Shown: piece after piece, positions 17,694-48,744 of the stretch
Numbering within the stretch: the stretch's first letter is position 1
How the letters are laid out: the number at the start of each line of letters is the position of its first letter
Origin: Chiloscyllium plagiosum
Lineage: Eukaryota
Direction: 5' to 3'
Length of the DNA: 63,511 nucleotides
NCBI RefSeq assembly: GCF_004010195.1
Contig: NC_057719.1
Coordinates: 3,108,286 to 3,171,796, forward strand
The notes under the pieces: model-generated
What the model saw: only the letters and a program-made list of their open reading frames with translations
Told to the model about the DNA's origin: nothing
Databases searched by the model: none
Position numbers and translations under genes: made by a program

Positions 17694-18940
17694 ATAGAAC
17701 ATAGAACATAGAACATAGAAGAATACAGCGCAGTACAGGCCCTTCGGCCCTCGATGTTGCGCCGATCCAAGCCCACCTAACCTACACTAGCCCACTATCC
17801 TCCATATGCCTATCCAATGCCCGCTTAAATGCCCATAATGAGGGAGAGTCCACCACTGCTACTGGTAGGGTATTCCATGAACCCACGACTCGCTGAGTAA
17901 AGAACCTACCCCCGTACCAGAGTCTTATACAACTGCATCATGACCTCAGGACTCCGGAACTCAATTCCTCTACCAATAAAAGCCAGTACGCCATATGCCT
18001 TCCTCACCGCACTATTTACCTGGGTGGCAACTTTCAGAGATCTGTGTACATGGACACCAAGATCCCTCTGCTCATCCACACTACCAAGTATCCGACCATT
18101 AGCCCAGTACCCCATCTTTTTGTTATTCTTCCCAAAGTGAATCACCTCGCACTTAGCTACATTGAATTCCATCTGCCACCTTTCTGCCCAGCTCTGCAGC
18201 TTCTCTATATCCTGCTGTAACCTGCCACATCCTTCCTCACTGTCAACAACTCCTTCGACTTTCGTATCATCCGCAAACTTGCTTACCCAACCTTCTAACC
18301 CCTCTTCCATGTCATTTATAAAAATGACAAACAGCAATGGTCCCAAAACAGATCCTTGCGGAACACCGCTATTGACGGCACTCCATGAAGAAACTTTGCC
18401 ATCAACTACTACCCTCTGTCTTCTTCCATCCAGCCAATTCCTAATCCAAACCTCCAACTCACCCTCAATGCCATATCTCCGTATTTTCTGCAGTGGCCTA
18501 CCATGGGGAACCTTATCAAACGCCTTACTAAAATCCATATATACCACATCTACCGCTTTCCCCTCATCAACCTCCTTCGTCACCTTTTCAAAGAATTCAA
18601 TAAGGTTTGTGAGGCACGACTTGCCCTTCACAAAACCATGCTGACTATCCTTGATCACATTATTCCTATCCAGATGTGCATAAATCCTATCCCTTACAAT
18701 TCTCTCTAAGACTTTGCCCACAACAGAAGTGAGACTCACCGGCCTACAGTTGCTAGGGTTATCCCTACTCCCCTTTTTGAACAAGGGAACCACATTTGCT
18801 ATCCTCCAGTCTTCTGGCACTACTCCTGTAGACAACGAGGACATAAAAATCAAGGCCAACGGCTCTGCAATCTCCTCCCTTGCTTCCCAGAGAATCCTAG
18901 GATAAATGCCATCAGGCCCAGGGGACTTATCTATTTTCAC
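17694..18940 (-). mobile_element. Young CR1 with an uninterrupted 344-aa RT segment and an internal deletion near 17910
   Basis: [36 protein letters not shown] and FADD motifs; (AGAACAT)n tail at ~17696-17720. Confidence 0.95.
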
Positions 18941-29975: not shown

Positions 29976-30003
29976 GACGTTTCGGGCAAAAGCCCTTCGT
30001 CAG
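29976..30003 (-). ncRNA. Minimal hammerhead ribozyme motif
   Basis: CTGACGA-A-GGGC(TTTT)GCCC-GAAA-CGTC; differs from the + copy only at the variable N7 position. Confidence 0.7.
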
Positions 30004-30009
30004 GAATTC

Positions 30010-30037
30010 CTGATGAAGGGCTTTTGCCCGAAACGTC
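30010..30037 (+). ncRNA. Minimal hammerhead ribozyme motif
   Basis: CTGATGA-A-GGGC(TTTT)GCCC-GAAA-CGTC: core boxes, 4-bp stem II, palindromic ACGT helix III, GUC site. Confidence 0.7.
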
Positions 30038-30139
30038 GATTTTCCTGCTCCTCGGATGCTGCCTGAACTGCTGTGCTCTTCCAGCACACTAATCAAAAAT
30101 CGGTTTCCAGCATCTGCAGTCATTGTTTTTACCCTGGAG

Positions 30140-31090
30140 AGAAGAATAACAGAGGGAAAGTGATAGAGTGGTGGAGTGGTATAGAAGGGACAGAGAGAGG
30201 GGAAGTGAATGTGAGGTAAGTAGTGAGAGAGTTATGAAAGATGGAGGAGACGGAGTGAGAGAGTGATGGATGGGAGGGACAGACAGTGTGGGAGGGAGGG
30301 ACTAAGTGTGGGAGGGATGGATGGAGGGAATGAGTGAGTGCAAGATGGAGGGAGACAGTGTGGGAAGGATAGAGGAGGAAGGAGAGTGTGATGGGGAGAG
30401 AGTGCGCAATGGAAGGAGACAGTGTGTGTTATGGGGAGAGNNNNNNNNNNNNNNNNNNNNNNNNNNNNNNNNNNNNNNNNNNNNNNNNNNNNNNNNNNNN
30501 NNNNNNNNNNNNNNNNNNNNNNNNNNNNNNNNNNNNNNNNNNNNNNNNNNNNNNNNNNNNNNNNNNNNNNNNNNNNNNNNNNNNNNNNNNNNNNNNNNNN
30601 NNNNNNNNNNNNNNNNNNNNNNNNNNNNNNNNNNNNNNNNNNNNNNNNNNNNNNNNNNNNNNNNNNNNNNNNNNNNNNNNNNNNNNNNNNNNNTTGGAGG
30701 GAGAGAGTGATGGTGGGAGAGTGTGAGATGGGGAAGGAGAGAGAGTGTGTGATGGAGGGAGAGTGTGATGGAGGGAGAGAGTATGATGGAGGGGAAGAGA
30801 GTGTGAGATGGAGGGAGAGAGAGTATGATGGAGGGGAAGAGACAATGTGATGGAGGGAGCGAGCAGGCCGCTGGTTGTCCGGGCGGGGTGAGGTGAGGGT
30901 TGAGCCTGAGGAGCAATGTGAGTATAATCCTCAGTCGGAGGGTGAGGAATCCGGCTCCTCTGGGGCTTCTGCAGTTTTTGTTTCTCTCTCTGTCTGTGTC
31001 TGTCCCTCTCTTTCTCGGAGTCATTGTCTCTCTCCCTCAGTCTCTTTGCCTTTCTCTCTCTCTCTGGCTGTGCCTCTCTCCTTCTCCCTG
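30140..31090. repeat. GA-rich then CT-rich low-complexity tract with a gap
   Basis: GATGGAGGGAGAGAGT-like repeats; (TC)n at ~30980-31090. Confidence 0.85.
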
Positions 31091-31099
31091 CCCCACAGA

Positions 31100-31546
31100 C
31101 TGGGTTCCGGGCAATGCCCAGCCTGAGGAAGGTGGTAGTGCCTGGGGAAGCTCGGTGCTGTGTAGAGGGAGAGTCCGGGGGGAGAGGGAGCTGCGTGTTT
31201 GCGAGCGGACTCAGTGAGTGAGGGCAGCGCCGGCTGTAAACCGTGCACACAGCAAGCTGCTCCCGGCTCACTCCAACCACAACTTCCATTTGAGCAGCGC
31301 CCACTTCCTCCCCTCGGCTCCGGCCAAAGTTCGCCGATTCTCCAGGAGCAGCTCTCAGAGACGAGGGCCGAAGATGACAGCGGTCTGCCGGGGAAGATGA
31401 GCGGATTTTCCAACGAGGTGCTTTGGAAACGGGCTGCTAACTCCTGCAGCTGATCCGAGGGGCCGGGCTCTGAGCTGCTGAAACCTGTGAATTCCTCAGC
31501 CTCTGGTAACTTGCTCTTTACCCACTCTCAGGTCAATACGGTGAGG
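31100..31546 (+). promoter_or_regulatory. CpG-rich unique region, candidate TUNAR promoter and first exon
   Basis: The most CpG-dense non-repeat stretch in the window; candidate donors G|GTAACT (31506) and CG|GTGAGG (31541); link to TUNAR is inferred. Confidence 0.5.
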
Positions 31547-31889
31547 ACTGGTTTCACTCCTAGAGTCTCTGTGTGAGTGTGTGCGCTTCCAGTGTGTCTC
31601 TGCTGTTTTCACTGGACTCTCTCTGACTGCTGACAATTCCTCCTGTTGAGGGGAGTAGCCCCTACAAACACAGAGCCCCTACCTACACTGTGCCCACTGT
31701 AGAGACTGGATCCTGGGCTGTGCCTACTGTCCCCTGGTACCATGCAGTGATATGGTGGTCATGTCCATAGCCGCTAGTCTCCCGATGGAGTTTGGGTTCA
31801 AATTCCACTGTAGTAGAGATGGTGGGATTTAAACTCAATTTTTAAATAGCTGGCCAGGTGGTGCCCAATAGTCTTGTTGAATCACAAAT

Positions 31890-32680
31890 AGTTAGTTTGC
31901 AGGTGCAGTAGGTACTTAAGGCAGATGGGCAAAAGTGAGGACTGCAGATGCTGGAAATCAGAGTCCATATTAGAGTGGTGCTGGAAAAGCACAGCACGTC
32001 AGGTAACATCCAAGGAGCAGGAAAATCAACGTTTCAGGCAAAAGCCCTTCGTCAGGCAAATGCAATATTGTCCTTCATTGCGCGAGGTAGATTATGTTGC
32101 AGCTGTACAGGGTGCTGGTGAGGGCACACCTGGGTTACTGTGTACAGTTTTGGTCTCCTTCCTTGAGAAAGGATGTACTGGCACTGGAGGGGGTGCAGAG
32201 GAGGTTCGCTAGGTTGGTTCCAGAGTTGAGGGGATTGCCTTATGAGGAGAGATTGTGTAGACTGGGACTAAATCTATTGGAATTTAGAAGAATGAGAGGG
32301 AATCTTATAGGAATGTATAAAATTATGAAGGGAATAGATAAGATAGAAGCAGGGAAGTTATTTCCACTGGCCGGTGAAACTAGAACGAGGGAGCATAGCC
32401 CAAAATCAGGGGGAGCAGGTTTCAGACTGAGTTAAGGAGGAACTTCTCCACCCAGAGAGTTGGGAATCTGTGGAATTCCCTGCCCAGGGAAGCAGTTGAG
32501 GCTACCTCATTGAATGTTTTAAGGCAAAGATAAATTTTTGCACAGTAATGGAATTAAGGGTATGGTGAGTGGGCGGGTAAGTGGAGCTGAGTCCATGAAA
32601 AGATCAGTCATGATCTTATTGAATGGTGGAGCAGGCTTGATGGGCCAGACGGCCTACTCCTGCTCCTAGCTCTTATGGTC
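31890..32680 (+). mobile_element. CR1 3' fragment with a short Penelope-like insertion (~31928-32054)
   Basis: ORF 32094-32435 RAHLGYCVQFWSP...EGVQRRF. Confidence 0.85.
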
Positions 32681-33228
32681 TTAACCAAAAAAAACCCACC
32701 TGGGTCATTAAAGTCGTTTAGGGAAGGAAACTGCCATCCCTACCTGGTCTGCTTTACATGTGACTCCAGACCCACAGCAATGTGGTTGACTCTTAGCTGC
32801 CCTCTGGGCAATTATGGATGGGCAATAAATGCTGGGTCTAGCCAGAGACGCCCACAATCCTGTGAGCAAATTATAAAAAAAAGCACTTTCGCTGTGGCCT
32901 AACCAATGCTTAATATAATTTCAGCATAACCTCCCAACTCAAACTCTATGCCTCAGCGAATAAAGTTGAAATCACACAACTCCAGGTTCTAGTCCAACAG
33001 GTTTATTTGGAAGTATAAACTTTCGGAATACTGCTCCTTCATCACCTGAACTTTGTCCACCCCTGTCCAATACCAGCTCCTCAAAATCAGTGAATATATG
33101 CAAACCAGACAGTTAGGTATAGGCCTGTAGCTTTCAAAGGTGTGAGGGCTACAGCAGTGAATGAGCAAGTCAGGGAGAAAATTGAGTGATATTCTGGTCT
33201 TCATGATAGTAGGGTTTTGTGATTAGAA

Positions 33229-33757
33229 TCTGGATTAGTGGTGCTGGAAGAGCACAGCAGTTCAGGCAGCATCCAAGGAGCTTCGAAATCGACGTTTTGG
33301 GCAAAAGCCCTTCATCAGGAATAAAGGCAGTGAGCCGGGAGCGTGGAGAGATAAGCTAGGGGAGGGTGGGGGGGGGGAGAAAGTAGCATAGNNNNNNGTT
33401 GAAGTGTTCCGAGGCAGAAGATGAGGCGTTCTTCCTCCAGGCGTCTGGTGGTGAGAGAGCGGCAGTGAGACCTGCCTATCTCCTTTTCCATCTATCCACT
33501 CCACCCTCGCCTCCCTGACCTATCACCTTCATCCCCTCCCCCACTCACCCATTGTACTCTATGCTACTTTCTCCCCACCCCCACCCTCCTCTAGCTTATC
33601 TCTCCACGCTCCAGGCTCACTGCCTTTATTCCTGATGAAGGGCTTTTGCCTGAAACGTCAATTTCAAAGCCCCTTGGATGCTGCCTGAACTGCTGTGCTC
33701 TTCCAGCACCACTAATCCAGAATCTGGTTTCCAGCATCTGCAGTCATTGTTTTTATC
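33229..33757. mobile_element. Penelope-like insertion with inverted termini
   Basis: Inverted arms ~33229-33390 and ~33560-33725; TTTTGTGATTAGAA at 33215-33228 and 33758-33771; hammerhead-like motif at 33632-33659. Confidence 0.85.
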
Positions 33758-35094
33758 TTTTGTGATTAGAAACCCACATAACAGTCAAAGCTGTGCACTC
33801 CCTCATTTAGCCTCAGATTATTCTCGGGAGAAGGGTGGGTTTAGTGGAACAGAGTTTGGAGTGGGGACCAGAAACAGTGGTATCAGTCCTCCCCATATTT
33901 AATTGGAAAATAAATTCTATTCATCCTGTCCTGGATGTTGGATAAGTTAGTAACAGAGGAGGGATTGAGAGAGGTGATGGTCATGTTGGAGGGTTGTCAG
34001 CTTTAAATGTATGAACTAATGCTGTGCTTTTAGACAATGTTACTAAGGGCAGCGTGGAGGTGGTAAATAGGGGGCCTAAGGATAGAGTCTTCGGGACACC
34101 AGAGGCAATGGAGCTGGGGCAGGAAGGGAAGAGAGTGTAAGCTCGTCTGGCTGTGATAGATGCACCATAATGGACCCAGGTGGAAGCAGTCTAATCCAGC
34201 CGAACGAGAGTGGAGAGATGTTGAGGCAGGATGGTGTGGTTCACTGTGTCAAAGGCTTCAGACAGGTCAGGAAGTTTTTCTTTTATTCATTTGTGGGATG
34301 TGGGTGTCACTGGCTGGGCCCAGTATTTATTACCCATCCCTAGTTGCCCCTTGAGAAGGTGGGGGGTGAGCTGCCTTCTTGAACTGCTGCAGTCCATGTG
34401 CTGTAGGTCCAGGATTTTGACCCAGTGACACTGAAGGAACGGTGATATATTTCTAAATCAGGATGTGAGTAGCTTGGAGGGGAATGTGAAAGTGGTGGTT
34501 TTCTGCTGACTTTGTCTATTTAGATGATTTGATTTATTGTTGTCACATGTACCTAAGTACAGTGAAAAGCTTTGTTTGCAAGCATTACAGGCAGATCATA
34601 GCAAACAAGGACATACAGATCATAGGGTGCTTAGACCGATGGAGGCATACAGAAGTGGAAATGGTCCTGGGTTTGGAAGGTGCTATATGAGGATCTTTGG
34701 TGAATTTCTGCAGTGCGTCTTGTAGATGGTACACACTGCTGCTACTGAGCGTCGGTGGTGGAGGGGGTGGATGCTGAGAAATAGTGAGTGGGAAGTTTAC
34801 CTTCCTCACAATCACAGAGGATGTTATTTTGGACTTTGTTTTCGGTTCTGTGACAGGAACAGAAACCTGATTGACTCAAACACGGAGTTCCAGGAAGAAT
34901 GGGCAAGGATTTTGGGAGGCAAGTTTATTTTTAATTCATTCACAGGATGTGAACATGATTGGTTAGGATCTGGAATTAATAATCTAACGATAACTGTGTA
35001 ACCAATATTCCATTGTCAGAGAAACCCTTCAGGTTCACTCATGTCCTCTAGGGAAATAAATCTGCTGTCCTTACCTGGTCTGGCCAACATGTTG

Positions 35095-37240
35095 TTAGAG
35101 TCGTAGAGTCATACAACATGGAAACAGACCCTTCAGTCCAACTCAATGCTGATCTGGTTTCCCAAACTGAACTAGTCTCATTTTCCAGCATTTGCCCCAT
35201 ATCCCTTTGAACCTTCCTATTCATGTAGCTGTCCAAATATCTTTTAACTGTACCTATACCTATTACTTTTTCTGGCAGCTCATTCCATTTACATATCACC
35301 CTCTGTATGAAAAGGTAACCCCTTTTAAAACTTCCCTGTCTCAAACCTAAGCCCTTTGGTTTTGAACTCCCCAACCCTAAGGACAGGACCTTTGCTATTC
35401 ACCTTATCTATGGCCCTCATCATTTATAAACCTCTATAACCCCTCAACTTCTTACGCTTTAGGGAAAAATGTCCCAGCTTCTCCTTTTAACTCAAACCCT
35501 CCTCTCCCTGTAACATTCTTCTAGATTTTTGCAGTACCCTTTCCAATGTAATAATATTCTTCCTATAACCGGTGACCAGAACTGTACACACTACCCCAAA
35601 TGTGGCCTCACCAATGTCCTGTACAGCTGCAACATGGTGTACCAACTCTTACACTCAATGGTCTAACCAATGAAGGCATGCATGCTAAACATCTTCTTCA
35701 CCACCAGGTCTACTTGTGACACCACTTTCAAGGAACTATATACCCGAGTCTCTAAGTCTCTCTGCTCAACAACACCCCACAGGGCCCTACCACTAAGTGT
35801 ATACGTCCTGCCTTGATTTTCCTTACCAAAATGCAACACCTCATATTTATCTAAATTCAACCCCATCTGCCAATCCTCAGTCCATTTGTCCATCTGATCA
35901 AGATCCTGTTGTAATCTGACATAACCTTCTTCACTATACCACCAATTTTGGTGTTATCTGCAAAAGTATGAACCATGCTTCCCACATTCTAATCCAAATC
36001 ATTCATAAAAATTACAAACAAAAGTAGACCCAGTACCGATCCCTATAGGACACCATTGGTCAAAGACTTCAGCTTAAAAACAACCATCAACCATCTCCTT
36101 CAGTCTCCTACTATCAAGCCAACTTTGTATCCAATTAGTTTGCTCTCCCTGGATCCCATGTGATCTATCTTCACTAACCAGTTTACCATGCGGATCCCTG
36201 TCAGTGGCCTTGCTAAAGTCCACATGGACAACATCTACCGCCCTACCCTCATCAGCCTTCTTGGTCACATCCTCAAAAGGCTGAATCAGATTGTGAGACA
36301 TGATTTCCCACACATAACACGATGCTGACTATCCCTAATCATTCCTTGACTTTCCAAATGCCTCTCTCAGCATGTTCTTCAACAACCCACCCGCCATTCA
36401 AACTCATTGGTCTATAGTTCCCTGGCTTTTCCTTGCAGCCTTTCTGAAGAAAAGACACAACATTAGTAACCCACTTGTCTTATGGCACCTCACCCATGGC
36501 TGCAGATGATATAACTATTTCTACTAGGGGCCTCACAATTTCTTCCCTAACTTCCCACAATGTCCTAGGATACACCTGATCAGGTCCTGGGGATTTATGT
36601 ACTTCTATGCTTTTTAAGACCTCCAGCACCTTCTCTTCTGTAATGTGAACTGTTTTCAAGACATCACTATTTATTTCCCCAAGTTGTCTAGCTTCCATGT
36701 CTTCCTCCACTGTAAATACTGACAGAAATATTCATTAAGTATCTCACCCATCTATACATGGGTGGTTCCACACATAGATGACCTCATTGATATTTAAGAG
36801 GCCCTATTCTCTGCCTAGGTACACTTTTGCCTTTAATATACTTATAGAATATCTTTGGATTCTCTTCAACCTTATCTGTTAAAGCTTTCTCATGTCCCCC
36901 TTTTGCCCTCCAAATCTCCTCTTTAAGTATGCCCCTACTCTCCATAGAAGGATTCACCTGATCCCAGTTGTCTATATCTTACATATGCCTCCTTTTGTTT
37001 ACAAGAGCCTCAATATCTTTAGTCATCCACTGTTCCCTTCTCCTATCAGCCTTGTACTTCACACTAACAGGAATATACTGCCCCAGAAGTCTCATTATCT
37101 CGCATTTGAAAGCCTCCCACTTGCCAGGTGTCCTTTTAGCTGTGAACAGCCTTCCCCAATCAACTTTTGGAAGTTCCTGTCTAATAACTTCAAAACTGGC
37201 CTTGCTCCAATAACTTTATCTTTTAACTATCCTTTTCCAT
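35095..37240 (-). mobile_element. Degenerate CR1, about 2.1 kb
   Basis: KSPGPDQVYPRTL, VDFSKA and LDKYEVLHFG motifs; CR1 tail near 35100. Confidence 0.9.
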
Positions 37241-37779
37241 AACCTCAATGTGGTTGACTCTTAATTGCCTTCTGGGTAATTAGGGATGGGCAATAAATGT
37301 TGGCTTAGCCAGTGACACCCGCATCCTATGAAACGTAGCTTGGAGTTGGGAATGGTAGATTTCAAGTTCAGTAGATTGAAGGGATGATATTTTGAGGACT
37401 ATGAGCTTCGAATTAGAAGTGTATTGTGGATTTATGAACTACAAATGCAGGAGATGGGTACAACATGGTTTGGGTTTGACTGGATTAGAGATAAAAGGAT
37501 GAGAAGTGAAGAGGGTCCTTTGTGCTTCTGAACAAAAGGTGAGTGTAGCTGGGTGGACTGCACTGGAACTAGACCCAATGGAATGGAAACTGACAGAACT
37601 GCAGATGCTGGAAACCAAACAAAAACAAAAATTGCTGCAAAAGCCCAGCAGGTCTGGCAGCATCTGTTGAGAGAAGTCAGAGTTAGCGTTTCGAGTCTGG
37701 ATGTGACTCTTCTTCAGAACAGAGAGAGGTAGAAATGTGATAGGTTACAGACAAAGACCCGAGAAGTAGCAGGCTATGA

Positions 37780-38500
37780 CCATCTCCAATAAAAGAGAAT
37801 CTAACCATTGTTCCTTGACATTCAATGGTGTTATCATTATTAAATCCCCCACTATCAACTTCCTGGGGGTTACCATTGACTAGAAACTAGGCTCATCATG
37901 TGAATAGAGTGGTTATAAGAGCAGGTCAGAGGCTAGGAATACTACAGCGAGCAACTCACCTCCTGACTCCCCAAAGCCTGTCCATCATCTACAAGGCAAA
38001 AGTCAGGAGTCTGATGGAATACAACCCACTTGCCCTGGATGGGTGCAGCTCCAACAACACTCAAGAAGCTTGACACCATCCAGGACAAAGCAGCCCACTC
38101 AATTGGCACCACATCCACAAGCATCCACTCCCTCCACCGCCAATGCTCAGTAGCAGCAGTGTGTACCATCTACAAGATGCACTGCAGAAATTCACCAAGG
38201 TTCTTCAGATAGCACCTTCCAAACCCACGACCACTTCCATTTAGAAGGACAAGGGCAGCAGACACATGGAACATCGCCCCCTGTAACTTCCCTTGTAAGC
38301 CACTAACAATCCAGACTCGGAAATATATCGCCGTTCCTTCACTGACGCTGGGTCACCATCCTGGAATTCCCTCCCTCATGTTACCCACTACATGTGCACT
38401 GCAGCAGATTAAGAGGCAGCTCTCCATCATCTTCGTAAGGGCATTGAGGGATGGCAATAATAGTGGCCCAGTCCGCGATATGCATGTCCCATGAGTGAAT
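37780..38500 (+). mobile_element. Older LINE 3' fragment (CR1/L2 group)
   Basis: YKAKVRSLMEY...TTLKKLDTIQDKAA motif; 3' end GGCAATAATAGTGGCCCAG. Confidence 0.7.
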
Positions 38501-38577
38501 AAGAGGAAAATGCTGTTAGAAGTTGGGAAAGGAGAGGAGGAATAAAAGGGAAGCTGTGGAATTGGGCAGAGAAATCG

Positions 38578-39221
38578 CAGCAGGACCTTGATCAGCTGGG
38601 GAAGTGGGCCAAGAAATGGCAAATGGAGTTTAATATAGATATGTGTGAGGTCTTGTATTTTGGAAAGTCAAATCAAGGTAGGAGTTTCATGGTGAATGAT
38701 AGGGCCTTAAGGAGTGTAGTGGAACAGAGGGACCTTGGAGTTCAGGTTCACAGTACTCTGAAAGACAGGGCCGTGAAGAAGGCTTTTGACACACTGACCT
38801 TCATCAGTCAGAGCATTCAGTATAAAAGTTATGTTGCAGTTATACAAGACATGGGTTAGGCCACATTTGGAGTATTGTGTTCAGCTTTGATCACCTTGTT
38901 ATAGGAAGGATGTTATTAAACTGGAAAGAGTGCAGAAGAAATTTGCCAGGACTCAATGGTCTGAGTTATAGGGAGAGGTTGGACAAGCTAGGACATTTTT
39001 CTTTCGAGTACAGGAGACTGAGGGAGGACCTTATAGAAGTTATAAGATCATGAGAGGCATGGATAGGATGAATGCACTCAGTCTTTTCCCCCAGGGTTGA
39101 GGAATCGAGTACTAGAGGCCAACAGTTTAAGGTTAGAGGGGAAAGAATAAAAGGGAACCTGAGGGGCAAATCTTTTACACAGAGGGTGGTATGCATATGG
39201 AATGGGTTGTCAGTGGAGTTG
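38578..39221 (+). mobile_element. CR1 fragment
   Basis: MEFNIDMCEVLYFG, RPHLEYC and DLIEV motifs. Confidence 0.85.
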
Positions 39222-40540
39222 TAGAGTCATAGAGATGTACAGCACGGAAAAAAGACCCTTCGGTCCAACCCGTCCATGCTGACCAGCAATTCCAACCCAA
39301 TCTAGTCCCACTTGCCAGCACCTGGCACATATCCCTCCAAACTCTTTCTATTCATATACCCATCCAGATGCCTTTTAAATATTGCAATTTTATTAGCCTC
39401 CACCACTTCCTCTGGCAGCTCATTCCATACATGTACCACCCTCTGTGTGAAAAAGTTGCCTCTTTTATATCTTTCCTCTCTCACCCTAAACCTATGCCCT
39501 CTAGTTCTTTGTCTATTTATACCTCTCATGATTTTGTAAACCTCTACAAGGTCATCCCTCAGCCTCCGACGCTCCAGGGAAAACAGCCCCAGCCTATTCA
39601 ACCTCTCCCTATATCTCAAATCCTCCAACCCTGGCAACATCCTTGGGAATCTTTTCTGAATCCTTTCAAGATTCACAACATCTTTCCGATAGGAAGGAGA
39701 CCAGAATTGCACGCAATATTCCAACAGTGGCCTAACCAATGTCCTGTACAGCTGCAACATGACCTCCCAACTCCTGTACTTAATGCTCTGACCAGTAAAG
39801 GAAGCATACCAAACGTCTTCTTCACTATCATATCCACCTGCGATTCCGATTTCAGGGAGCTATGAACCTGCACTCCAAGGTCTCGTTGTTCAGTGACACA
39901 CCCTAGGACCTGACCATTCAGTGCATAAGTCTTGCTAAGCTTTGCTTTCCCAAAATACAGCACCTCACATTTATCTAAGTTAAACTCCATCAGCCACTTC
40001 TCAGCCCATTGGCCCATCTGATCGAGATCTCATTGTAATCTGAGGTAATCTTCTTCACTGTCCGCTACACCTCCAATTTTGGTGTCATCTGCAAACTTAC
40101 TAACTGTAACTCTTTTGCTCACATCCAAATCATTTATATAAATGATGAAAAGTAGTAGACCCAGCACCGATCCTTGTGGCACTCCACTGGTCAGAGGCCT
40201 CCAGTCTGAAAAACAACCCTCCACCACCACCCTCTGTCTTCTACCTTTGAGCCAGTTCTGTATCCAAATGGTGAGTTCTCTCTGTATTCCATGAGATCTA
40301 ACCTTGCTAATCAGACTCCCATGGGGAACCTTGTCAAACACCTTACTGAAGTCCATAAGGATCACATCTACTGCTCTGCCCTCATCAATCCTCTTTGTTA
40401 CTTCTTCAAAAAATTCAATCAAGTTTGTGAGAAATGATTTCCCACGCACAAAGTCATGTTTACTATCCCTAATCAGTCCTTGCCTTTCCAAATACATGTA
40501 CATCCTGTCCCTCAGGATTCCCTCCAACAACTTGTCCACC
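39222..40540 (-). mobile_element. CR1, 5'-truncated
   Basis: ORFs 40030-40539, 39673-40017 and 39302-39760 together span the RT C-terminal half. Confidence 0.95.
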
Positions 40541-41407
40541 TAACCCACATATCTTTTGACTGTGAGAGAAAGCGTATGGAGGGGCCTGTGTCCACATTGA
40601 GAAACAGTATTATGCACCACTTGCCCCCTCAACAAGCTCAATTTTACCCCTCTGTCATGCTGCAGATCCCAGAGGCACTGTCATTGATAATTCCATAACT
40701 GTGTCTGAAGGTGCAGTCACATATCCCCCCCACCCGCCAGAACTCTAGGGCATATGTTTAAGGTGAGAGGGAAAAGATTTAAATGGGATCTAAGGGGGAA
40801 GTCTTTCACGTAGAGGGTGGTGCATATGTGGAATGAGCTGCCAGAGGAAATGATGGAGGCTGATACAATTACAGCATTTAAAAGACATTTGGACAGGTAC
40901 ATGAATAGGAAGGGTTTAGAGGGATATGGGCCAGGAGTTGGCAAATGGGACTAGACTAATTTCGAATATCTGGTCAGCATGGACGAGTTGGACCTACAGT
41001 AAATCTCTATGACTCTATGATGCTCACAAAGTAGACATTGAGCTGTTATACCATACACCAGGGTGAAGTGAAACAGTCCATCAGCCAGCTCACCCCATGA
41101 CCCTTTCTCCTTCAGCTCAGTTCAGCCTCCTCTCAGTAACACCATCTGCTGATGGGAGTCTTCTGTTCTTACACACAGCCCTGTCCAATCCAGTCCAAGA
41201 GTTGTTTCTCGTCCTTGCTACTTACAGTTAGGCTGCAAGGTCACCCCATGAAAGCACAAACTGCAATCTTCCTTGGAAATCTGGCTTCCTTAAATTACAA
41301 CGGAATCTTTTTGAAAGCACCTAGGCTCATAACACAAGGTTAATCCTAGACTTCACAAAGCCATTGAGATACGTGGGTTTTAATCACTTCAAACCTTTTC
41401 ACAGAAA
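40536..41407 (+). repeat. Local direct duplication, copy 1
   Basis: Near-identical to 52516-53407, including non-TE sequence. Confidence 0.95.
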
Positions 41408-42460
41408 CGAGAGCAATAAAAATGTGAAACATTTGTCCAGACCAAGTTAGACCTGAAGACATAGGAGGTCATTCAACCCATTGATCCAGGCTGGTAAAGC
41501 ACATAAAAATGGAACCCAAATGGAGAACAGAGTCCACAGTAAGAAATTGTTGGACTCAATGTTGAGCCCTGAAGGCTGTAAATTGTCTGATTGGAAGATG
41601 AGATATTGCTTCTTTAGCTTGTATTGAGTCTTACTGCATCAAGCTGTAGACAGAAACTGTGGCCTGATGGTAGTTTGGAAAGTTGTGCAGAATGTGAGTG
41701 GTACCATAGAAATGCAGGTCATTCTGTCTAATTGAAGCCCTAAAAATGAGCCTGGAGGAATTTTGAAATGAACACCTTGATGAGACAGGAGAGAAGAAAT
41801 GAATGGTGATGGTATTTTTCTCAGATTTGTGGAAGAAGGCTGAAAGAAGGAACAAATTACTGCAGATGCTGGAATCAGGTTTGAAAAGAACAAATGCTGG
41901 AGATCACAGCGGGTCAGACAGCATCCACAGAGAGAGAGCAAGCTACTGTTTTGAGTCGAGATGACTCTAGATTCTAAACGTTAGCTTACTGTCCGTCGAT
42001 GCTGTCTGACCCGCTGTGATCTCCTGCATTTGTTGTTTTCAAACCTGATTCCACTTCTGAAGAAGAGTCATACCTCGGTCTCAAAACATTCTCTCTCTCT
42101 CTCTCTCTTTCTCTCCCTCTCTCCCCACTGTCTGACCTGCTGAATTTCTTCAGCCCTTTCTGTTTCTATTCAAGATTTCCAGCACCAACAATATTTTGCG
42201 TTTATAAACCTTCTTGCATCCTCATTGTCTGATTCAGGGGAGGTCATGCTGCAGTGCCAGTTTCTAAAAGAGAGTTTTCCATTAATTCCTTTTCCTAATT
42301 CTTTTGCCATAATCCTGCAAATGTTTCCTTTCCAATTATTTATCGAATTCCTGGTTTGAAAGTTTCTGTTTAATTAGCTTCCACTGCCCTTTCAGAAGGA
42401 TCATAGCAACTTGCTACAAAAATATAATTTCACCTCACCTGTCATTGTTTCTTTAGCTTG

Positions 42461-42489
42461 TCACATTTGCTCTTTGATATTCCAGGTAG
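42461..42489 (+). other. 3' splice acceptor of the TUNAR coding exon
   Basis: Pyrimidine tract TTTGCTCTTTGATATTCCAG|G with AG at 42484-42485; alternative AGs at 42455-42456 and 42488-42489. Confidence 0.6.
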
Positions 42490-42522
42490 ACCCGTCTCTC
42501 CGCCTCAGACCTTGCTGTGAAG

Positions 42523-42672
42523 ATGGTAATAACTGCGGCCAATGAAGAGGACAACGCTTCGAATGAAGAAAAGGAGAGTAAGGAGGAGACCATTCTGGCC
42601 ATTTTAGGCATCGTTGGGACTATCCTCAATCTTTTAGTCATCATCTTTGTGTACATTTACACAACGTTGTAA
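42523..42672 (+). CDS. TUNAR: TUNAR/megamind transmembrane microprotein (pTUNAR/BNLN homologue), 49 aa: MVITAANEEDNASNEEKESKEETILAILGIVGTILNLLVIIFVYIYTTL
   Basis: Manual translation; strong Kozak context AAGATGG; acidic N-terminus and C-terminal hydrophobic helix; matches the human 48-aa peptide as recalled (MVIT...EKESKEE...LGIIGTILNLIVIIFVYIYTTL). Confidence 0.93.
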   Translation: MVITAANEEDNASNEEKESKEETILAILGIVGTILNLLVIIFVYIYTTL

Positions 42673-45075
42673 TCAGGGCTGACCAAGCCAGGCAATAGAT
42701 ACTAACTGCAGTTGGGAGAGGCTCTTGATGGTGCTGTTAATGTAATAATAGTGTACACAAGGCAAGTCCTGATGTTCTTGACTATTCAAAGAACTCAATT
42801 ATCTTTACTTAAGATGCAATGTGAATGCGAGGACTGTGTTAGATAGAGAGCATCTATGTAGAAGACCATGTCAATTTGCCAGCAGGGATCAGCCTTTTCC
42901 TTAAGTCTAACATGCCAGGACACTGGTGCAATGAGGAAGAATAACTGATGTCAGGCTGGTAGTGTAATGATAGAGGAGGCCACCAGACAAAGGCTTCTGC
43001 AAGAAGCTCCAACCAAAATCACCAATGATGATCTTGTGGTATCTATCCTGAACAACACAGAACAGAGTTGGCTTTTTCTGTTCCTGTGCAATCCTCCAAC
43101 TGACTGTCTTCAAATCTGGATTATGTCTGGATCAATTCTCTGCAGCTAACCTTGAAGGTTTTACATAAGAAGTGCAGAGGATTGCCCCAGGGAAGGAAGC
43201 GAAGAAATGGATAACCTGGATGCAAGCAAACAAGCAGGATGTTCACCCATTAAGATGGATATATCACAGACCCTGAGCACCACAATGAATTGTCTCACTT
43301 GTTATCTTTTCACAATTCAAACATGATTGGATTTGAGCAGTTTCTGAACACACAGCATTTCCTCTGACTTCATGAGCTTCCAACTTCATCATCCCGGTCT
43401 GGAACATTGATCTGTCTGATGGTCTCTCAGAGGATCCACTGACCAGAATGTCCACCATTGTCATTTTGCCAATTTCCTGCTCATTCAGTCAATGTCATGG
43501 AGCAGCCTCTCCTGCCCCCTGCCTTCCCCAACCTGTATAAACAACTCTTCTGTTCTACCACTGGACAGGCTCACGTGAACCCCTCCCCCCAAGGTGGATT
43601 GGGTCACATGGCTGGTTTAGATCATGTGGTCCTCTACCTCATCCAAGAAATGACTGACATGTGACTCCCAATTACAATTTAGGATGAAATGAAATGGAAG
43701 CACATTTTGTAAGGAACTCAATTTTCCCACTTTTAGAGCTTGTATTCTGTATGAAACATTCGCGCTATTGAAACAGGGATTTTGGTGAAACAAAGGATAA
43801 TGTTTAAATTTTAATTATTCACTCGATAGGTCTTGGGACTTAAAACTATTTAATGTTAAACCATCTTCCTAACACCATTAGTGATATTTAACCTTGTTTT
43901 GAATGAATGGCCTTTTCCCTCAAAGATAAACATAATTTAAGGTTGCTTAACTGTCTGATAAAACAATCCAGTGGTTTTAACTATGATATATCAGAGTGAT
44001 TACAGGACTTGCATTTATCCCAGTGCCTTAATCTTCATTAAAATGCCCTAGTATGTGTCAAGGGCCAAACACAGATGAAGACAGAGTTAGGTGAGATGAC
44101 ATACTCAAACAGCTAGGTCTCCTGTGGAGAGCTTCAAAACCAGGGGGATCGGTCATGAGAGGTGCTGGTAAAGCCCAAACATTCTGACATGTTTGCCTAA
44201 TGCAAATTCAATTAACTTCAGCAGATCAACTAACTCCACAAAGATCTACGCACATGATGCACCAAGGCTCCTCAGACAGCGCCTTCTAAATCCCCGGCTA
44301 CTTCCATCGAGAAGGACAAGGGCAGCAGATACATGGGAACACCACCCCCTGCATGTTCCCCTCCGAGCCACTCAGCATCCTGACTCGGAAATGTATCGCC
44401 GTTCCTTCAGTGTCACTGGGTCAGAATCCTGAAACTCTGTCCATGACTGGACTGTGGGTGAACCTGGACATGAACTGGACTCTGAATTTCAGGCCTCAGG
44501 CCTCTAACATAACAGTGCTCTCGCAAAGACAGAACTTTATGTTTATGTAACACTTTCAACCAGGAAAACATTAAAAAGCATTTTATGGAATCACAGAGTT
44601 GTTAAGATATAGGTGGATGTCATTCAGCCTATCATGGGCTCTCTGAATTAGACATTTCATTTATACTGTTGTTCTGCTGCCTTAGCTGTGGAACCCAGTC
44701 TATTCTTCTTTTACTGATTTCCTTTTGCAAGCCTCAGTTTCCCCTGCCTCCACCACACTGTCAGGCAGGGCATTCAGCCCAAGTGAATTTCTAGATGAAG
44801 AGTCACCTAGACTCTAAACATTAGCTTGCTCTCACTGCATGGATGCTGCCCGACCCGCTGTGATCTCCAGCATTTGTTGTTTTCAGTGATAAAATTACAA
44901 TGAATTTGAATACAAGTACTTGTTGGCAGTGATTGTGTATTTAGTGTGTTATTTAACTGGTTTGTGTTAAACCCATCTGTGAACTGTTTGAAGAAATTGC
45001 TTTCTTATCTATTCTCCAGTTTAGATACTTTCCTGAATGGTTCACACAATTAAAAGGGACATTTCCCTCTGCTTT
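42673..45075 (+). other. Probable TUNAR 3' UTR
   Basis: Largely unique sequence, AT-rich distally; candidate ATTAAA at 45049-45054 followed by a T-rich tract; the end point is a guess. Confidence 0.4.
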
Positions 45076-45899
45076 TTCTCCATCATCAATAGCTTGGCAT
45101 TTCTAGCTCAATCACTGGTAGCTCACTGTGTGAAAGACAATGTTTCTCACCACATCATTTTTGCTTCATTTGAAAACTAAATCAGTGTTGTCTCGTTTTC
45201 GTGAATGGGAACAATTTGTCCCTATTTACTCTGTCCGGGCCACTCATGACTTTATGAAGATTATGATCAGACAGAAATGACACAGCATGGGAGAGGGAGA
45301 TGAATGATAGTTTGGTTAGAGAGAGAGAGATTTGAAGGAATACCATAGGACATTTAGAGAGGTTCAGAGAAGAGATTTCAGACCTTAGGGCCCAGGCAGA
45401 TAAAGGCCAAGCCACTGATGGTGGAGGAAAGGCAATGGGAAATATTGCTTTTCATTATGTGCATGATTCATAAAGATATCTAAACTTGAAGATAAATAAG
45501 AAAGTAATTTCTTCAGTTCAAAGAGGGCTTTAACATAAACCAGTTAACAAACACACTCAATATACAACCACTGCAATCAAGTACTCAAATTCAAATTCAT
45601 TTCCATTTTATCAGGGGCTATAGGTTCCAGGAATGAGTAACTTGGCTCTATGAGGATAGATTGAAGACATTGGGACTGTTCCCCCTGGAGAGAGGAAGCT
45701 GAGAGGAGATTGATAGAAATTTACAAGATCATTGAGTGGCCTGGAGGGAGAAGCTGTCCCAACTTGTAAAGGAGGAAGGAGTGAGAGGGCGTACATTTAA
45801 AGTGATGTGGAACTGAAGCAAGGGTGATATGAGCAAAAAAAAACGTTTTCCCGTAGTGAGTTGTTAGGGTTCGGAATGTACTGCCTGGAAATGTAGTCA

Positions 45900-46235
45900 A
45901 AGTCAGACATCACACAACACCAGGCTATAGTCCAACAGGTCTTTTTGATATCACAAGCTTTCGGAGTGCTGCTCCTTCATCAGGTCCTGAGGAAGGGTCT
46001 CTGGACCTGAAATGTTAACTTTGATTTCTCTTCACAGATGCTGCCAGACAGACATGCTGAGCTTTTCCAGCAACTTCTGTTTTTGTTTCTGTTGGGCTAT
46101 AACCTGGTGTCGTGTGACTTCTGACTTCATACACTCTGAGGAACAGCCTTGCAAGTTTGTTCTGCTGTAGTGGGTGAAGATTACCGACACTTCTGACTTT
46201 GTGCACCCAGTCCAACACCGGCAACTCTACATCAT
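45900..46235. mobile_element. Composite of two Penelope-like terminal modules inserted in a CR1 fragment (45610-46420)
   Basis: Inverted CACACAACACCAGG.TATAGTCCAACA arms; hammerhead-like motifs at ~45956-45983 (-) and ~45987-46016 (+). Confidence 0.65.
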
Positions 46236-47689
46236 GGAGGCAGGTTGGAGGCAGGTTCTGCTGAGGCATTCCTAACGGGCATTGGATGGTTATTTGGATA
46301 GAAACGGTCTGCAGGGATATAGTGAAAAGGCAGGAGATTGGCATGAAGAGATAGAACAGACACGACAGGGCCAAATGGTCTCATTTTGCACTGTAGTAAT
46401 CCTCTGTGATTCTTTGAATTCTGAAAGTCTGGGGACCACAGACTTATGGGGCCTGTACAGAACTCTCATTGGGGTCTGCAAAATAACATACACTGAACAG
46501 GGCTGTTTCTAACGGCTGGGCAGGCTGATCCAAGTTTGGTACAAGCCTGGATTCTGAAATGGATATACAGCCATACGTTAGGCAGAGCAGAGTGAGCTGC
46601 CTGCACCATCTCCCAGAGGAGGCTGCACATAAAATTCTGAGATTAACAGGGACATTGTTGTGGTAATGGTCAAGTAAACGTCAATTACTGAACACCCTGA
46701 TTACTTACAAATATCAAGCACTTATCATGTGTAGTGTTTTTCACACTTTGAGTATTTTAAATTCCTATAATGTAGATGGGGGTTTGTAATTCACTCCTAA
46801 TCAGGCCCATCAAGCAAAGGAATTTCAGAACCATTGACTTTTGTAACCCTGTGCGGTAATCAGAGAAATTTGGAAAATGATAGGTCACAAGAAATGAAAC
46901 ATAACTGCTTGGAACCCAGATGTGTGGGAACTGGAATGTGTACCAGGGATGTCACTGACTTTGAGCTGGAGAAATCAATGCAAAAATAAACAGCATCTTT
47001 ATGAAATACAAACTCCACTGGTTTGGGGGATTTAATTGTGACACACTCAGTAAACCACAGTTGTGTTAATCTTTCCATTGCAAATGTAAAGGCCTCCAGC
47101 TGATTGGAGACAATTACCCAGCTGACTGCACTCCTACAGCATTGACACAACATTCAACTCATCACTGAACAGGACGCAGTTTATAGCAACTTTCTCCGTC
47201 AGCTAATTATTACAAACAGCAGGGATCGGGAATTCAAATCCTTTTTCCTGCTGAACTCAAGACTGCGTGACAATTATTACCAAACAGGGAAGTTCTTATG
47301 TTTCTATAGCATCTTTTTGCTTTATTGAATAGAACAGGGGATGGTAAGTGAGGACATCTCTGTTACCCAGCACAGCTTCCAGTTTCATGGGATCTGAAAT
47401 AAAAATGCAAAATGTTGGTGAATCTCAGCAGCTGTAGAGAGAGGAGTCATAGCGGACTATTGAATGTGAAATCTGTTTCTCCACAGACGCTGCCAGATCT
47501 GCTGAATTTCCTGTTTTTAGTTCAGATTTCCAACATCCGGAGGATTTTAGTTTTGTACTCATCATCCGTGTGATCTGACTTTATATAATGCACACGCTCA
47601 GTAGAGTTTTTTAGATTGAAGGTAGAGTAAACTTTGATTTCACATCTCCTCTCAGTTTCACTCCTCCCACAACTTGTTCCCCTCATGAA

Positions 47690-47975
47690 AATGTAGAAAT
47701 GTAGAAAACAGGAGCAGAAGGAGGCCATTTGGCCTTCGCACCTACTGTACCATTCTACATGATCATGGTTGATCATCCAATTTTGTCCCCTGTTTCCCAC
47801 TTTCTCCCTACACTCTTTAATCCCTTTATCCCGAAGAACTACATTTAACTCCTCCTTGAAAACATTCAATGTTTTGGCCTCAACCGTTGTCTGTGGCAGA
47901 GAATCCCACAGTTTCCCCACTCTCTAGGTGAAGACATTTCTCCTCATCTCAGTCCTAAACAGCCTACTCTATATC
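47690..47975 (-). mobile_element. CR1 3' fragment
   Basis: LWDSLPQTTVEAKTLNVFKEEL plus 3' UTR. Confidence 0.8.
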
Positions 47976-48744
47976 GTGTAAGTGTGGATTATTTATACAC
48001 CTGTCATTGTCTACTTTGCTCCATAATAATGTCTTTGTGCTCCCCAGAGTGGCTCAGTGGTTAGCAACTGTTGCCTCACAGCACCAGGGACCTGGGTTTG
48101 TTTCCAACCTCAGGCACCTTATAGTGGACAGGAAGCCATGTGGCAGTGTGCACCCTGTATGCTTCCAACTCAAGGTCCTCGTCTGAGGCCCCTATGGCAG
48201 ATCCATCTGCAGCTTGCTCCCCCACCACAGAGAGTAAGGTAAGAGTGAGCTGGGAATTAAACAGGGACATACTGCCACTCTCAAAGCCCTCAGAATCACT
48301 GGGGTCACACAGGAACTGACTGCAGACCTGTAATGCAGAGTCACCTCCTCTGAGTTCGGGACAGGCAGGATCTCCTTTACTCTTTTGCCTCCCTTTTATC
48401 TGCTCGATAGAGAGGGTGGAACATCAGTGAGGAGTTACAGACCTTCATTGCAGGGAGCAGAGAGATGTAGGAGATGTGAGACTGGCAGCTGTGGTAGGTG
48501 TGGGAGGTAAGGTGGTGAATCACTGGTATGGGTACAAATCTACAAAGAAAGGTTATGTGTGTGTGTGTTCCATTTTTTTTTCAAATTGGCTCTGTTAACC
48601 ATTTTTGCAGAATAAGCCTTGTTTTAGGATAATCAATATTTTTGTTATTTATGAAAGAAATCTGCTAGATGGATCTTTTTATTCTGCAGTTAATATTAGA
48701 GAAGGTGATATAATTGGCCATTTCAGTATCTGCAGAAATCACTT

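What the first reader, a model, noticed from the sequence alone, without database searches (positions are those of the whole stretch)
42523..42672. Hidden 49-aa TUNAR/megamind microprotein gene in a shark
Seen: an ORF below the 60-aa track cutoff, with a strong Kozak context, a splice acceptor 37 nt upstream, an acidic N-terminus and a C-terminal transmembrane helix ending IIFVYIYTTL. Known: mammalian TUNAR and zebrafish megamind were first described as lncRNAs and encode a 48-aa ER peptide (pTUNAR/BNLN) linked to SERCA calcium handling. Inferred: this is a cartilaginous-fish homologue, so the peptide predates the bony/cartilaginous split. Differences from the recalled human sequence are conservative in the helix and concentrated in the N-terminal linker (one extra residue), as expected for selection on protein. 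It is likely to be missed by annotation pipelines.
Basis: partly seen in the sequence, partly recalled or inferred. Interest (0 to 1): 0.85.

Follow-up and report, generated by a model that had tools for sequence, protein, structure and literature searches.

The report
Shark TUNAR gene, one of four
This is a real, spliced shark gene for the known 49-residue membrane microprotein TUNAR, already annotated in other sharks and so mostly ordinary, but this genome carries four copies of the family, likely left by the two early vertebrate genome doublings, and the peptide likely tunes calcium pumping in the endoplasmic reticulum as reported in mammals.

Summary
The ORF is real: window 42523-42672 (+), 49 aa, a full-length match to Pfam TUNAR (E 1e-24). 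It is 40/49 identical to a bird TUNAR and 36/49 to bat and seal TUNAR. A 2,191-nt run contig shows a spliced transcript (exon 1 at 31204-31540, exon 2 from 42486, GT-AG intron). C14orf132 starts 32 kb downstream on the same strand, which marks this copy as the TUNAR orthologue rather than megamind. This exact protein is absent from the protein collection. The added result is that the genome has four family members. They are this gene, one antisense inside a BIRC6 intron (megamind type), one beside an HHIP-like gene, and a probably decaying one beside a FERM gene. They lie on the same four contigs as the reticulon and EML paralogues, which suggests a whole-genome-duplication quartet. Between the three intact copies the helix has pN/pS 0.10-0.17, and family conservation falls on one helix face. 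SERCA binding is inferred from mammalian papers and is untested here. Verdict: new member of a known family, modest interest.

The parts
31204..31540 (+). Exon 1 (5' UTR; the true start may lie further upstream), in a GC-rich non-repeat stretch; ends at a G|GTGAGG donor
   Evidence: Run X9 contig of 2,191 nt covers 31204-31539 joined to 42485-44339; the one-base ambiguity resolves to GT-AG
31374..31453 (+). Two short overlapping upstream ORFs (8 and 18 codons) in exon 1, both ending before the main ATG
   Evidence: function untested
31541..42485 (+). Intron, 10,945 nt, GT...AG, largely repeats
42486..44339 (+). Exon 2: 37 nt of 5' UTR, the whole coding sequence and at least 1.67 kb of 3' UTR (3' end not determined)
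   Evidence: X9 contig; pieces of run X1, another organism label, also lie on 43137-43583 and 43995-44341
42487..42489 (+). In-frame TAG 36 nt upstream of the ATG; it rules out an N-terminally extended isoform through this acceptor
42523..42672 (+). TUNAR coding sequence, 49 aa plus TAA
42523..42588 (+). Acidic N-terminal segment (residues 1-22), variable in the family except the EE just before the helix
42592..42660 (+). Predicted transmembrane helix (about residues 24-46) with a conserved face E22/L25/G29/G32-T33/N36-L37/V39/V43/T47
   Evidence: hydropathy; conservation moment p = 0.0026 on 77 unique cores

Best explanation
This is a spliced two-exon shark gene that encodes a 49-residue TUNAR-family peptide, is the likely orthologue of mammalian TUNAR, and likely works as an ER membrane helix that binds a SERCA calcium pump and tunes calcium re-uptake. 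Shown here: the ORF, the splice, family membership, the C14orf132 neighbour, three paralogues elsewhere in the genome, and selection on the helix at protein level. Inferred from the sequence: no signal peptide and a helix ending three residues before the stop suggest a tail-anchored protein with its acidic N-terminus in the cytosol; one face of the helix is held nearly invariant from lamprey to mammal and would pack against a membrane partner, while the opposite face varies among aliphatic residues and would face lipid. Inferred from two mammalian papers: the partner is SERCA2 or SERCA3, in neurons and endocrine cells. The four copies likely descend from one ancestral vertebrate gene through two genome doublings.
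For: Pfam TUNAR 1e-24 over the full length. 36 of 36 candidates in the homologue search carry PF21954; the best is a sevengill shark 'TUNAR-like' at 84%. Spliced contig with a GT-AG intron. C14orf132 exons at C10:3,183,085 and about 3,237,825, same strand; the sevengill shark's TUNAR-like and C14orf132 proteins are listed with the same longest-contig length, 87,304,332. GSKIP, an ATG2, a DICER-type domain and a poly(A) polymerase are on the same contig; these names share one human chr14 interval list with TUNAR (PMC6834745, one passage). In the tree the window gene groups with the sevengill shark protein (85/92) inside a bird/Xenopus group (82/92). Last 29 codons: C10 against C9 has 25 third-position and 0 second-position differences, pN/pS 0.10; C10 against C41 0.17; C9 against C41 0.13. 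DNA likeness of the coding exon to the C41 copy covers only the helix codons and ends at the stop codon. Conservation moment p = 0.0026. ER location and SERCA2/SERCA3 co-immunoprecipitation of the mammalian peptide: PMC8758570 and PMC8416971, passages. Shark SERCA genes are present.
Against: Nothing here shows translation, tissue or location of the shark peptide; the library type of run X9 is not on record, and the one raw-read RNA run laid gave 0 reads (no test). The two mammalian papers disagree on direction (SERCA2 activation against SERCA3 inhibition) and rely largely on tagged overexpression for binding. The tree has 51 columns, 57 of 110 inner branches are open and the bootstrap had not settled, so orthology rests on synteny. 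Adjacency of TUNAR and C14orf132 in human is recalled, not read. Gene order on C10 is not collinear with the recalled human order (ATG2/GSKIP at 0.06-0.19 Mb, this gene at 3.15, DICER at 4.12, poly(A) polymerase at 11.97 Mb). The selection test is between paralogues with saturated synonymous sites, not between orthologues.
Confidence: 0.62

Rival explanations
1. Same gene and peptide, but the conserved helix face serves another partner: a different ER or plasma-membrane transporter or channel, or the peptide's own oligomer, with calcium changes secondary.
For: The helix lacks the xLFxxF motif of regulins and shows no apparent similarity to them or to DWORF; the authors leave other mechanisms open (PMC8758570, passages). 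The two papers report opposite effects on ER calcium. The invariant positions follow a 3/4 heptad spacing with small and polar residues (G29, G32, T33, N36), a pattern common in helix oligomers (reading from general knowledge).
Against: Two independent groups recovered SERCA isoforms, one by unbiased pull-down and mass spectrometry followed by co-IP and proximity ligation (PMC8416971).
Confidence: 0.28
2. The locus works mainly as a long non-coding RNA, as TUNA/megamind was first described, and the ORF is incidental.
For: The transcript has a 374-nt leader with two upstream ORFs and a long 3' UTR. An RNA-level role was the original description (cited in PMC8758570).
Against: Between paralogues DNA changes at nearly every third codon position while the protein is kept; DNA likeness stops at the stop codon; no Rfam family in 30000-48000; a start-codon knockout in mouse cells gave a phenotype with RNA level unchanged (PMC8758570).
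Confidence: 0.05
3. The window gene is a TUNAR-family paralogue, such as megamind, and not the orthologue of mammalian TUNAR.
For: NCBI calls the closest shark relative 'TUNAR-like' and gives the plain name 'TUNAR' to other shark copies; deep branches of the tree are unresolved; marker order on C10 is scrambled.
Against: C14orf132 is 32 kb downstream. The BIRC6-intronic copy is on C9, and zebrafish megamind lies antisense in a birc6 intron (PMC4408788, PMC3668355, passages). N-terminal identity is 12-14 of 20 to tetrapod TUNAR against 7-8 of 20 to the two intact paralogues.
Confidence: 0.04

Closest known systems
Mammalian TUNAR peptide (pTUNAR / BNLN; Pfam PF21954; PMC8758570, PMC8416971)
   Same: Full-length family match; 36/49 identity to bat and seal proteins; ORF at the start of the last exon; C-terminal single helix; C14orf132 next to it (human adjacency recalled).
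   Different: One residue longer in the acidic linker; no N-terminally extended isoform through the observed acceptor (in-frame stop), whereas mammals have a 65-aa form; mammals appear to have one copy (recalled), this shark has four.
Heptranchias perlo 'protein TUNAR-like' (P0002)
   Same: 41/49 identity; sister in the tree; listed on a contig of the same length as that species' C14orf132.
   Different: Annotated with two extra N-terminal residues (ATG where this gene has GTG).
Zebrafish megamind (linc-birc6)
   Same: Same family; conserved last acceptor reported across gnathostomes (PMC4408788).
   Different: Megamind lies antisense in a birc6 intron; that position is held here by the C9 copy (31/49 identical to the window peptide), so it is a paralogue of this gene.
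SERCA regulins (phospholamban, sarcolipin, myoregulin, endoregulin, another-regulin) and DWORF
   Same: Small single-helix ER/SR peptides reported to act on SERCA; the likely working model.
   Different: No sequence relation: no regulin Pfam hit, no PDB relative, motif xLFxxF absent (PMC8758570).

Membership tests
TUNAR family (Pfam PF21954) | Score above the curated cut-off over the whole model | tested here: met
   86.5 bits against 27, residues 1-49 on model 1-48
TUNAR family (Pfam PF21954) | Acidic N-terminus, EE, then one C-terminal helix with the G..GT.LNL.V..FVYIYT pattern | tested here: met
TUNAR family (Pfam PF21954) | ORF at the start of the last exon of a spliced transcript | tested here: met
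   X9 contig, GT-AG intron, ATG 37 nt into exon 2; same layout in human per PMC8416971. The 3' end was not mapped and the run's library type is not on record.
TUNAR family (Pfam PF21954) | Purifying selection at protein level | tested here: met
   pN/pS 0.10-0.17 among the three intact paralogues, last 29 codons; not tested between orthologues
TUNAR family (Pfam PF21954) | Translated, ER-located, brain and islet expression | not testable with these tools
   No Ribo-seq, proteomics or tissue labels
TUNAR orthologue (human 14q32 locus) | Linked to C14orf132 and other 14q32 genes | tested here: met
   C14orf132 32 kb downstream; GSKIP, ATG2, DICER-type domain, poly(A) polymerase on the same contig but not in collinear order
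TUNAR orthologue (human 14q32 locus) | Groups with tetrapod TUNAR in a tree | tested here: inconclusive
   Groups with bird and Xenopus sequences at 82/92; deeper branches open
Megamind (linc-birc6) orthologue | Antisense inside a BIRC6 intron | tested here: not met
   The only BIRC6 domain hits are on C9, and BIRC6 exons flank the C9 copy, not the window gene
SERCA regulins | xLFxxF motif or sequence relation to phospholamban/sarcolipin | tested here: not met
SERCA regulins | Binds SERCA and changes its activity | not testable with these tools
   Needs a bench assay; reported for the mammalian peptide only
Two-round genome-duplication quartet (ohnologues) | Four copies on four paralogous chromosomes | tested here: met
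   TUNAR copies on C9, C10, C41, C45; 6 of 6 reticulon matches and 10 of 10 HELP matches lie on the same four contigs; 4 of 4 poly(A) polymerase matches on C9 and C10. ATG2 does not fit: 4 matches on C10, 2 on C8, 2 unplaced. Markers were chosen from memory of human paralogons.
Two-round genome-duplication quartet (ohnologues) | Duplications dated before the jawed-vertebrate radiation, with a single outgroup copy | tested here: inconclusive
   Lamprey relatives exist and shark copies have look-alikes in bony vertebrates, but the tree cannot date the splits; no invertebrate member among the 20 profile hits looked up by name

The most novel reading that the evidence does not exclude
TUNAR is not a single microprotein gene but the survivor of a four-member family made by the two early vertebrate genome doublings. 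This shark still shows all four positions (C14orf132-linked, BIRC6-intronic, HHIP-like-linked and a decaying FERM-gene-linked copy), and the helix face that binds the partner was already fixed in the lamprey-shark ancestor. Zebrafish megamind would then be a paralogue that mammals lost, not the counterpart of mammalian TUNAR, and redundancy among copies could explain why a megamind deletion mutant did not account for the morpholino phenotype.
Probability: 0.65. Interest if true: 0.45.

Novelty: new member of a known kind. Interest (0 to 1): 0.3.

Why it matters
As stated, the finding adds one unannotated species record to a known, Pfam-modelled family, which matters little. The wider picture is more useful. 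It sorts TUNAR from megamind by position, and it shows that database names in sharks sit on different paralogues. It also gives natural variants from lamprey to mammal that point to a short list of helix residues (G29, G32, T33, N36, L37, V43, T47) to test in the unsettled question of whether and how the peptide acts on SERCA. And it predicts that fish loss-of-function work must remove several copies at once.

Tried and rejected
Complex prediction of residues 8-49 with a shark SERCA2 (residues 42-996): no answer, score 0.00 in two runs, alignments not used, controls not folded; not evidence either way. RNA search: no holder on record as RNA was listed. Of 4 runs laid (of 22 listed), the single-cell raw reads gave 0 laid (no test), X7 showed no listed piece on the coding exon, X1 only 3' UTR pieces, and X9 the spliced contig. 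A processed-retrocopy origin of the spliced contig was considered; no second near-identical copy appears in the genome searches. PF15555 was a wrong guess for C14orf132 and gave 0 matches. PDB has no relative of the family (2 weak hits, best E 0.013). Rfam: 0 matches in 30000-48000. Weak genome hits on C27, C5 and C12 were below the Pfam cut-off and were dropped. No recognisable gene among the 35 best-scoring frames of the 70 kb upstream. The tree used 114 of 142 sequences (16 dropped for lacking the C-terminal anchor or being short, 12 as duplicates) and cannot order the duplications. The conservation count kept 135 of 141 sequences, 77 unique cores. Ulitsky 2011, Lin 2014 and Hezroni 2015 are not held; I recall Ulitsky 2011 describing several syntenic contexts for megamind homologues (birc6, hhipl1, bdkrb2), which would lower the novelty of the paralogy. 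Paper searches: TUNAR+shark 0 papers; megamind+hhipl1 0; megamind+peptide+paralog+zebrafish 2, listings only, not on topic by title; none of the 20 listed of 124 in the ohnologue search mentions TUNAR. Supplements of PMC8416971 had no shark or lamprey term; that of PMC8758570 could not be read and may list cartilaginous fish; held supplements of two ohnologue papers had none of the gene names searched, so they are no test. Earlier-findings look-ups returned nothing relevant.

Full report
Observation. Window 42523-42672 (+) is an open frame of 49 codons, with A at -3 and G at +4 of the start codon and an acceptor AG at 42484-42485. It has the highest 19-residue hydropathy (2.84) of 142 ATG-started ORFs of 40-60 aa in the window. 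It matches Pfam TUNAR PF21954 end to end at E 1e-24. The window is otherwise repeat-rich: 57% is covered by repeats in a self-comparison with 200 kb of neighbouring DNA. The organism is a shark: a SERCA2 exon of this genome is 100% identical to several shark proteins and one TUNAR paralogue is identical to a Chiloscyllium record.

Gene structure. Of 4 runs laid, run X9 holds a 2,191-nt contig that covers 31204-31539 and 42485-44339. The shared G resolves to exon 1 ending at 31540 and exon 2 starting at 42486, with a 10,945-nt GT-AG intron. The run's library type and tissue are not on record, but the contig skips a canonical intron and the genome searches show no processed copy, so it is best read as mRNA. 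The leader is 374 nt with two short upstream ORFs. An in-frame TAG 36 nt before the ATG prevents the N-terminally extended form seen in mammals and in many database entries. The single-cell raw reads gave no test (0 laid, about 6% of the run read).

Relatives. All 36 candidates of the word-indexed search carry PF21954; the best are a sevengill shark 'TUNAR-like' (84%) and bird, turtle and frog TUNAR (about 80-84%), and Scyliorhinus 'TUNAR' is at 64-66%. The exact protein is not in the collection. A profile search of 1.84 billion representatives gave 135 hits at E up to 0.001, which fall by eye into several N-terminal types. Of 20 hits looked up, 12 carry names: three lampreys (Petromyzon marinus, Lampetra fluviatilis, L. 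planeri), a horn shark, a sturgeon, three teleosts, a gecko, a snake, a bat and a seal; 8 are unnamed. The family is therefore already annotated in cartilaginous fish and reaches back to jawless vertebrates.

Which copy is this? The own genome has four matches above the Pfam cut-off, on C10 (window), C9, C41 and C45. Downstream of the window gene, on the same strand, lie the two exons of C14orf132, the first 32 kb away (identity 93% to Stegostoma C14orf132). GSKIP, an ATG2, a DICER-type domain and a poly(A) polymerase are on C10 too, though spread over 12 Mb. These names appear with TUNAR in one human chr14 interval list (PMC6834745, one passage); their order in human is recalled. The C9 copy (50 aa) lies on the + strand between two minus-strand BIRC6 exons at 19,963,799 and 19,917,322, the position described for zebrafish megamind (PMC4408788 and PMC3668355, passages). 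The C41 copy (52 aa) is 38 kb from an HHIP-like gene. The C45 copy is 23 kb from a FERM-domain gene (FRMD8-like by recall). It keeps the helix (43.3 bits) but lacks the acidic segment, and its in-frame ATG is followed by a stop after four codons. It is probably decaying, though an assembly error or a splice to an unseen exon is not excluded. So the window gene is the TUNAR orthologue by synteny. NCBI names mislead: 'TUNAR' in Scyliorhinus groups with the BIRC6 copy (99/87), 'TUNAR' in Chiloscyllium punctatum is identical to the HHIP-linked copy, and the true orthologue in Heptranchias is called 'TUNAR-like'.

A duplication quartet. All 6 reticulon matches and all 10 HELP (EML) matches fall on C9, C10, C41 and C45, each contig represented, and all 4 poly(A) polymerase matches fall on C9 and C10. 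ATG2 does not fit, with its second set on C8 and unplaced contigs. I chose these markers from memory of the human 14q/2p/11q/19q paralogon, so the test is targeted, not blind. The tree (114 of 142 sequences, 51 columns) cannot date the duplications. The quartet reading is likely but not proven.

Selection and mechanism. Over the last 29 codons C10 and C9 differ at 25 third positions, 6 first positions and no second position. pN/pS is 0.10-0.17 among the three intact copies and 0.23-0.32 for pairs with C45. DNA likeness of exon 2 to the C41 copy covers the helix codons and ends at the stop codon; two other short matches lie outside the coding part. This is the signature of a protein, not of an RNA element. 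Across 77 unique cores the least variable positions are E22, L25, G29, G32, T33, L35, N36, L37, V39, V43, Y44 and T47, and conservation is one-sided on a helical wheel (p = 0.0026). I infer a tail-anchored ER helix with a partner-binding face. For the mammalian peptide, ER location and binding to SERCA2 (PMC8758570, passages) and SERCA3 (PMC8416971, passages) are reported, with opposite inferred effects. The peptide is not a regulin by sequence. I put SERCA modulation at about 0.6, another membrane partner or self-assembly at about 0.3, and an RNA-only role at about 0.05. That this ORF is a real TUNAR-family coding gene is near certain.

Novelty. The peptide is known, is described as conserved across vertebrates (88 of 100 genomes in PMC8416971), has a Pfam model and is annotated in other sharks. 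Searches found no paper joining TUNAR with shark or megamind with hhipl1, but the key early papers are not held and, by my recall, already describe several megamind homologue loci. A review passage notes that megamind morpholino effects persisted in a mutant lacking the target (PMC7155256); redundancy among paralogues is my inference. Verdict: new member of a known kind, interest 0.3; the four-copy history would merit about 0.45.

Noticed in passing
L002:1486-1638 (G000:C9:19,941,815-19,941,967, +): Intact 50-aa TUNAR paralogue antisense inside a BIRC6 intron, the megamind position; an acceptor-like AG lies about 40 nt upstream.
   Followed up: yes
L003:1450-1608 (G000:C41:6,183,419-6,183,577, +): Intact 52-aa paralogue, identical to an NCBI Chiloscyllium punctatum 'protein TUNAR'; 38 kb from an HHIP-like gene on the opposite strand and 0.67 Mb from an EML HELP domain.
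   Followed up: yes
L004:1444-1593 (G000:C45, about 4,456,330-4,456,476, +): Fourth paralogue with the helix kept but no acidic N-terminus and no open ATG in frame; probably decaying; 23 kb from a FERM-domain gene.
   Followed up: partly
L016:1289-1315 and L021:6029-6250 (G000:C10:3,183,085 and 3,237,825): Two exons of C14orf132, itself an uncharacterised small protein of about 83 aa with a C-terminal hydrophobic helix, so two conserved membrane microprotein genes sit in tandem.
   Followed up: partly
window 31374-31453: Two overlapping upstream ORFs in the TUNAR leader, both starting in an AAG-ATG context, which may dampen translation.
   Followed up: no
proteins P0269-P0290: Divergent TUNAR-family types (for example ending VYTPV) mostly from unnamed assemblies, one from a carp; they may be the bony-fish form of the fourth copy.
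   Followed up: no
window, throughout (e.g. 1613-2629, 17906-18940, 39302-40539): Many fragments of reverse-transcriptase-bearing LINE repeats and several N gaps; 57% of the window is repeat by self-comparison.
   Followed up: no
G000:C10:64 kb to 11.97 Mb: ATG2/GSKIP, TUNAR, DICER and poly(A) polymerase are spread over 12 Mb and out of the recalled human order; rearrangement or scaffolding error.
   Followed up: no
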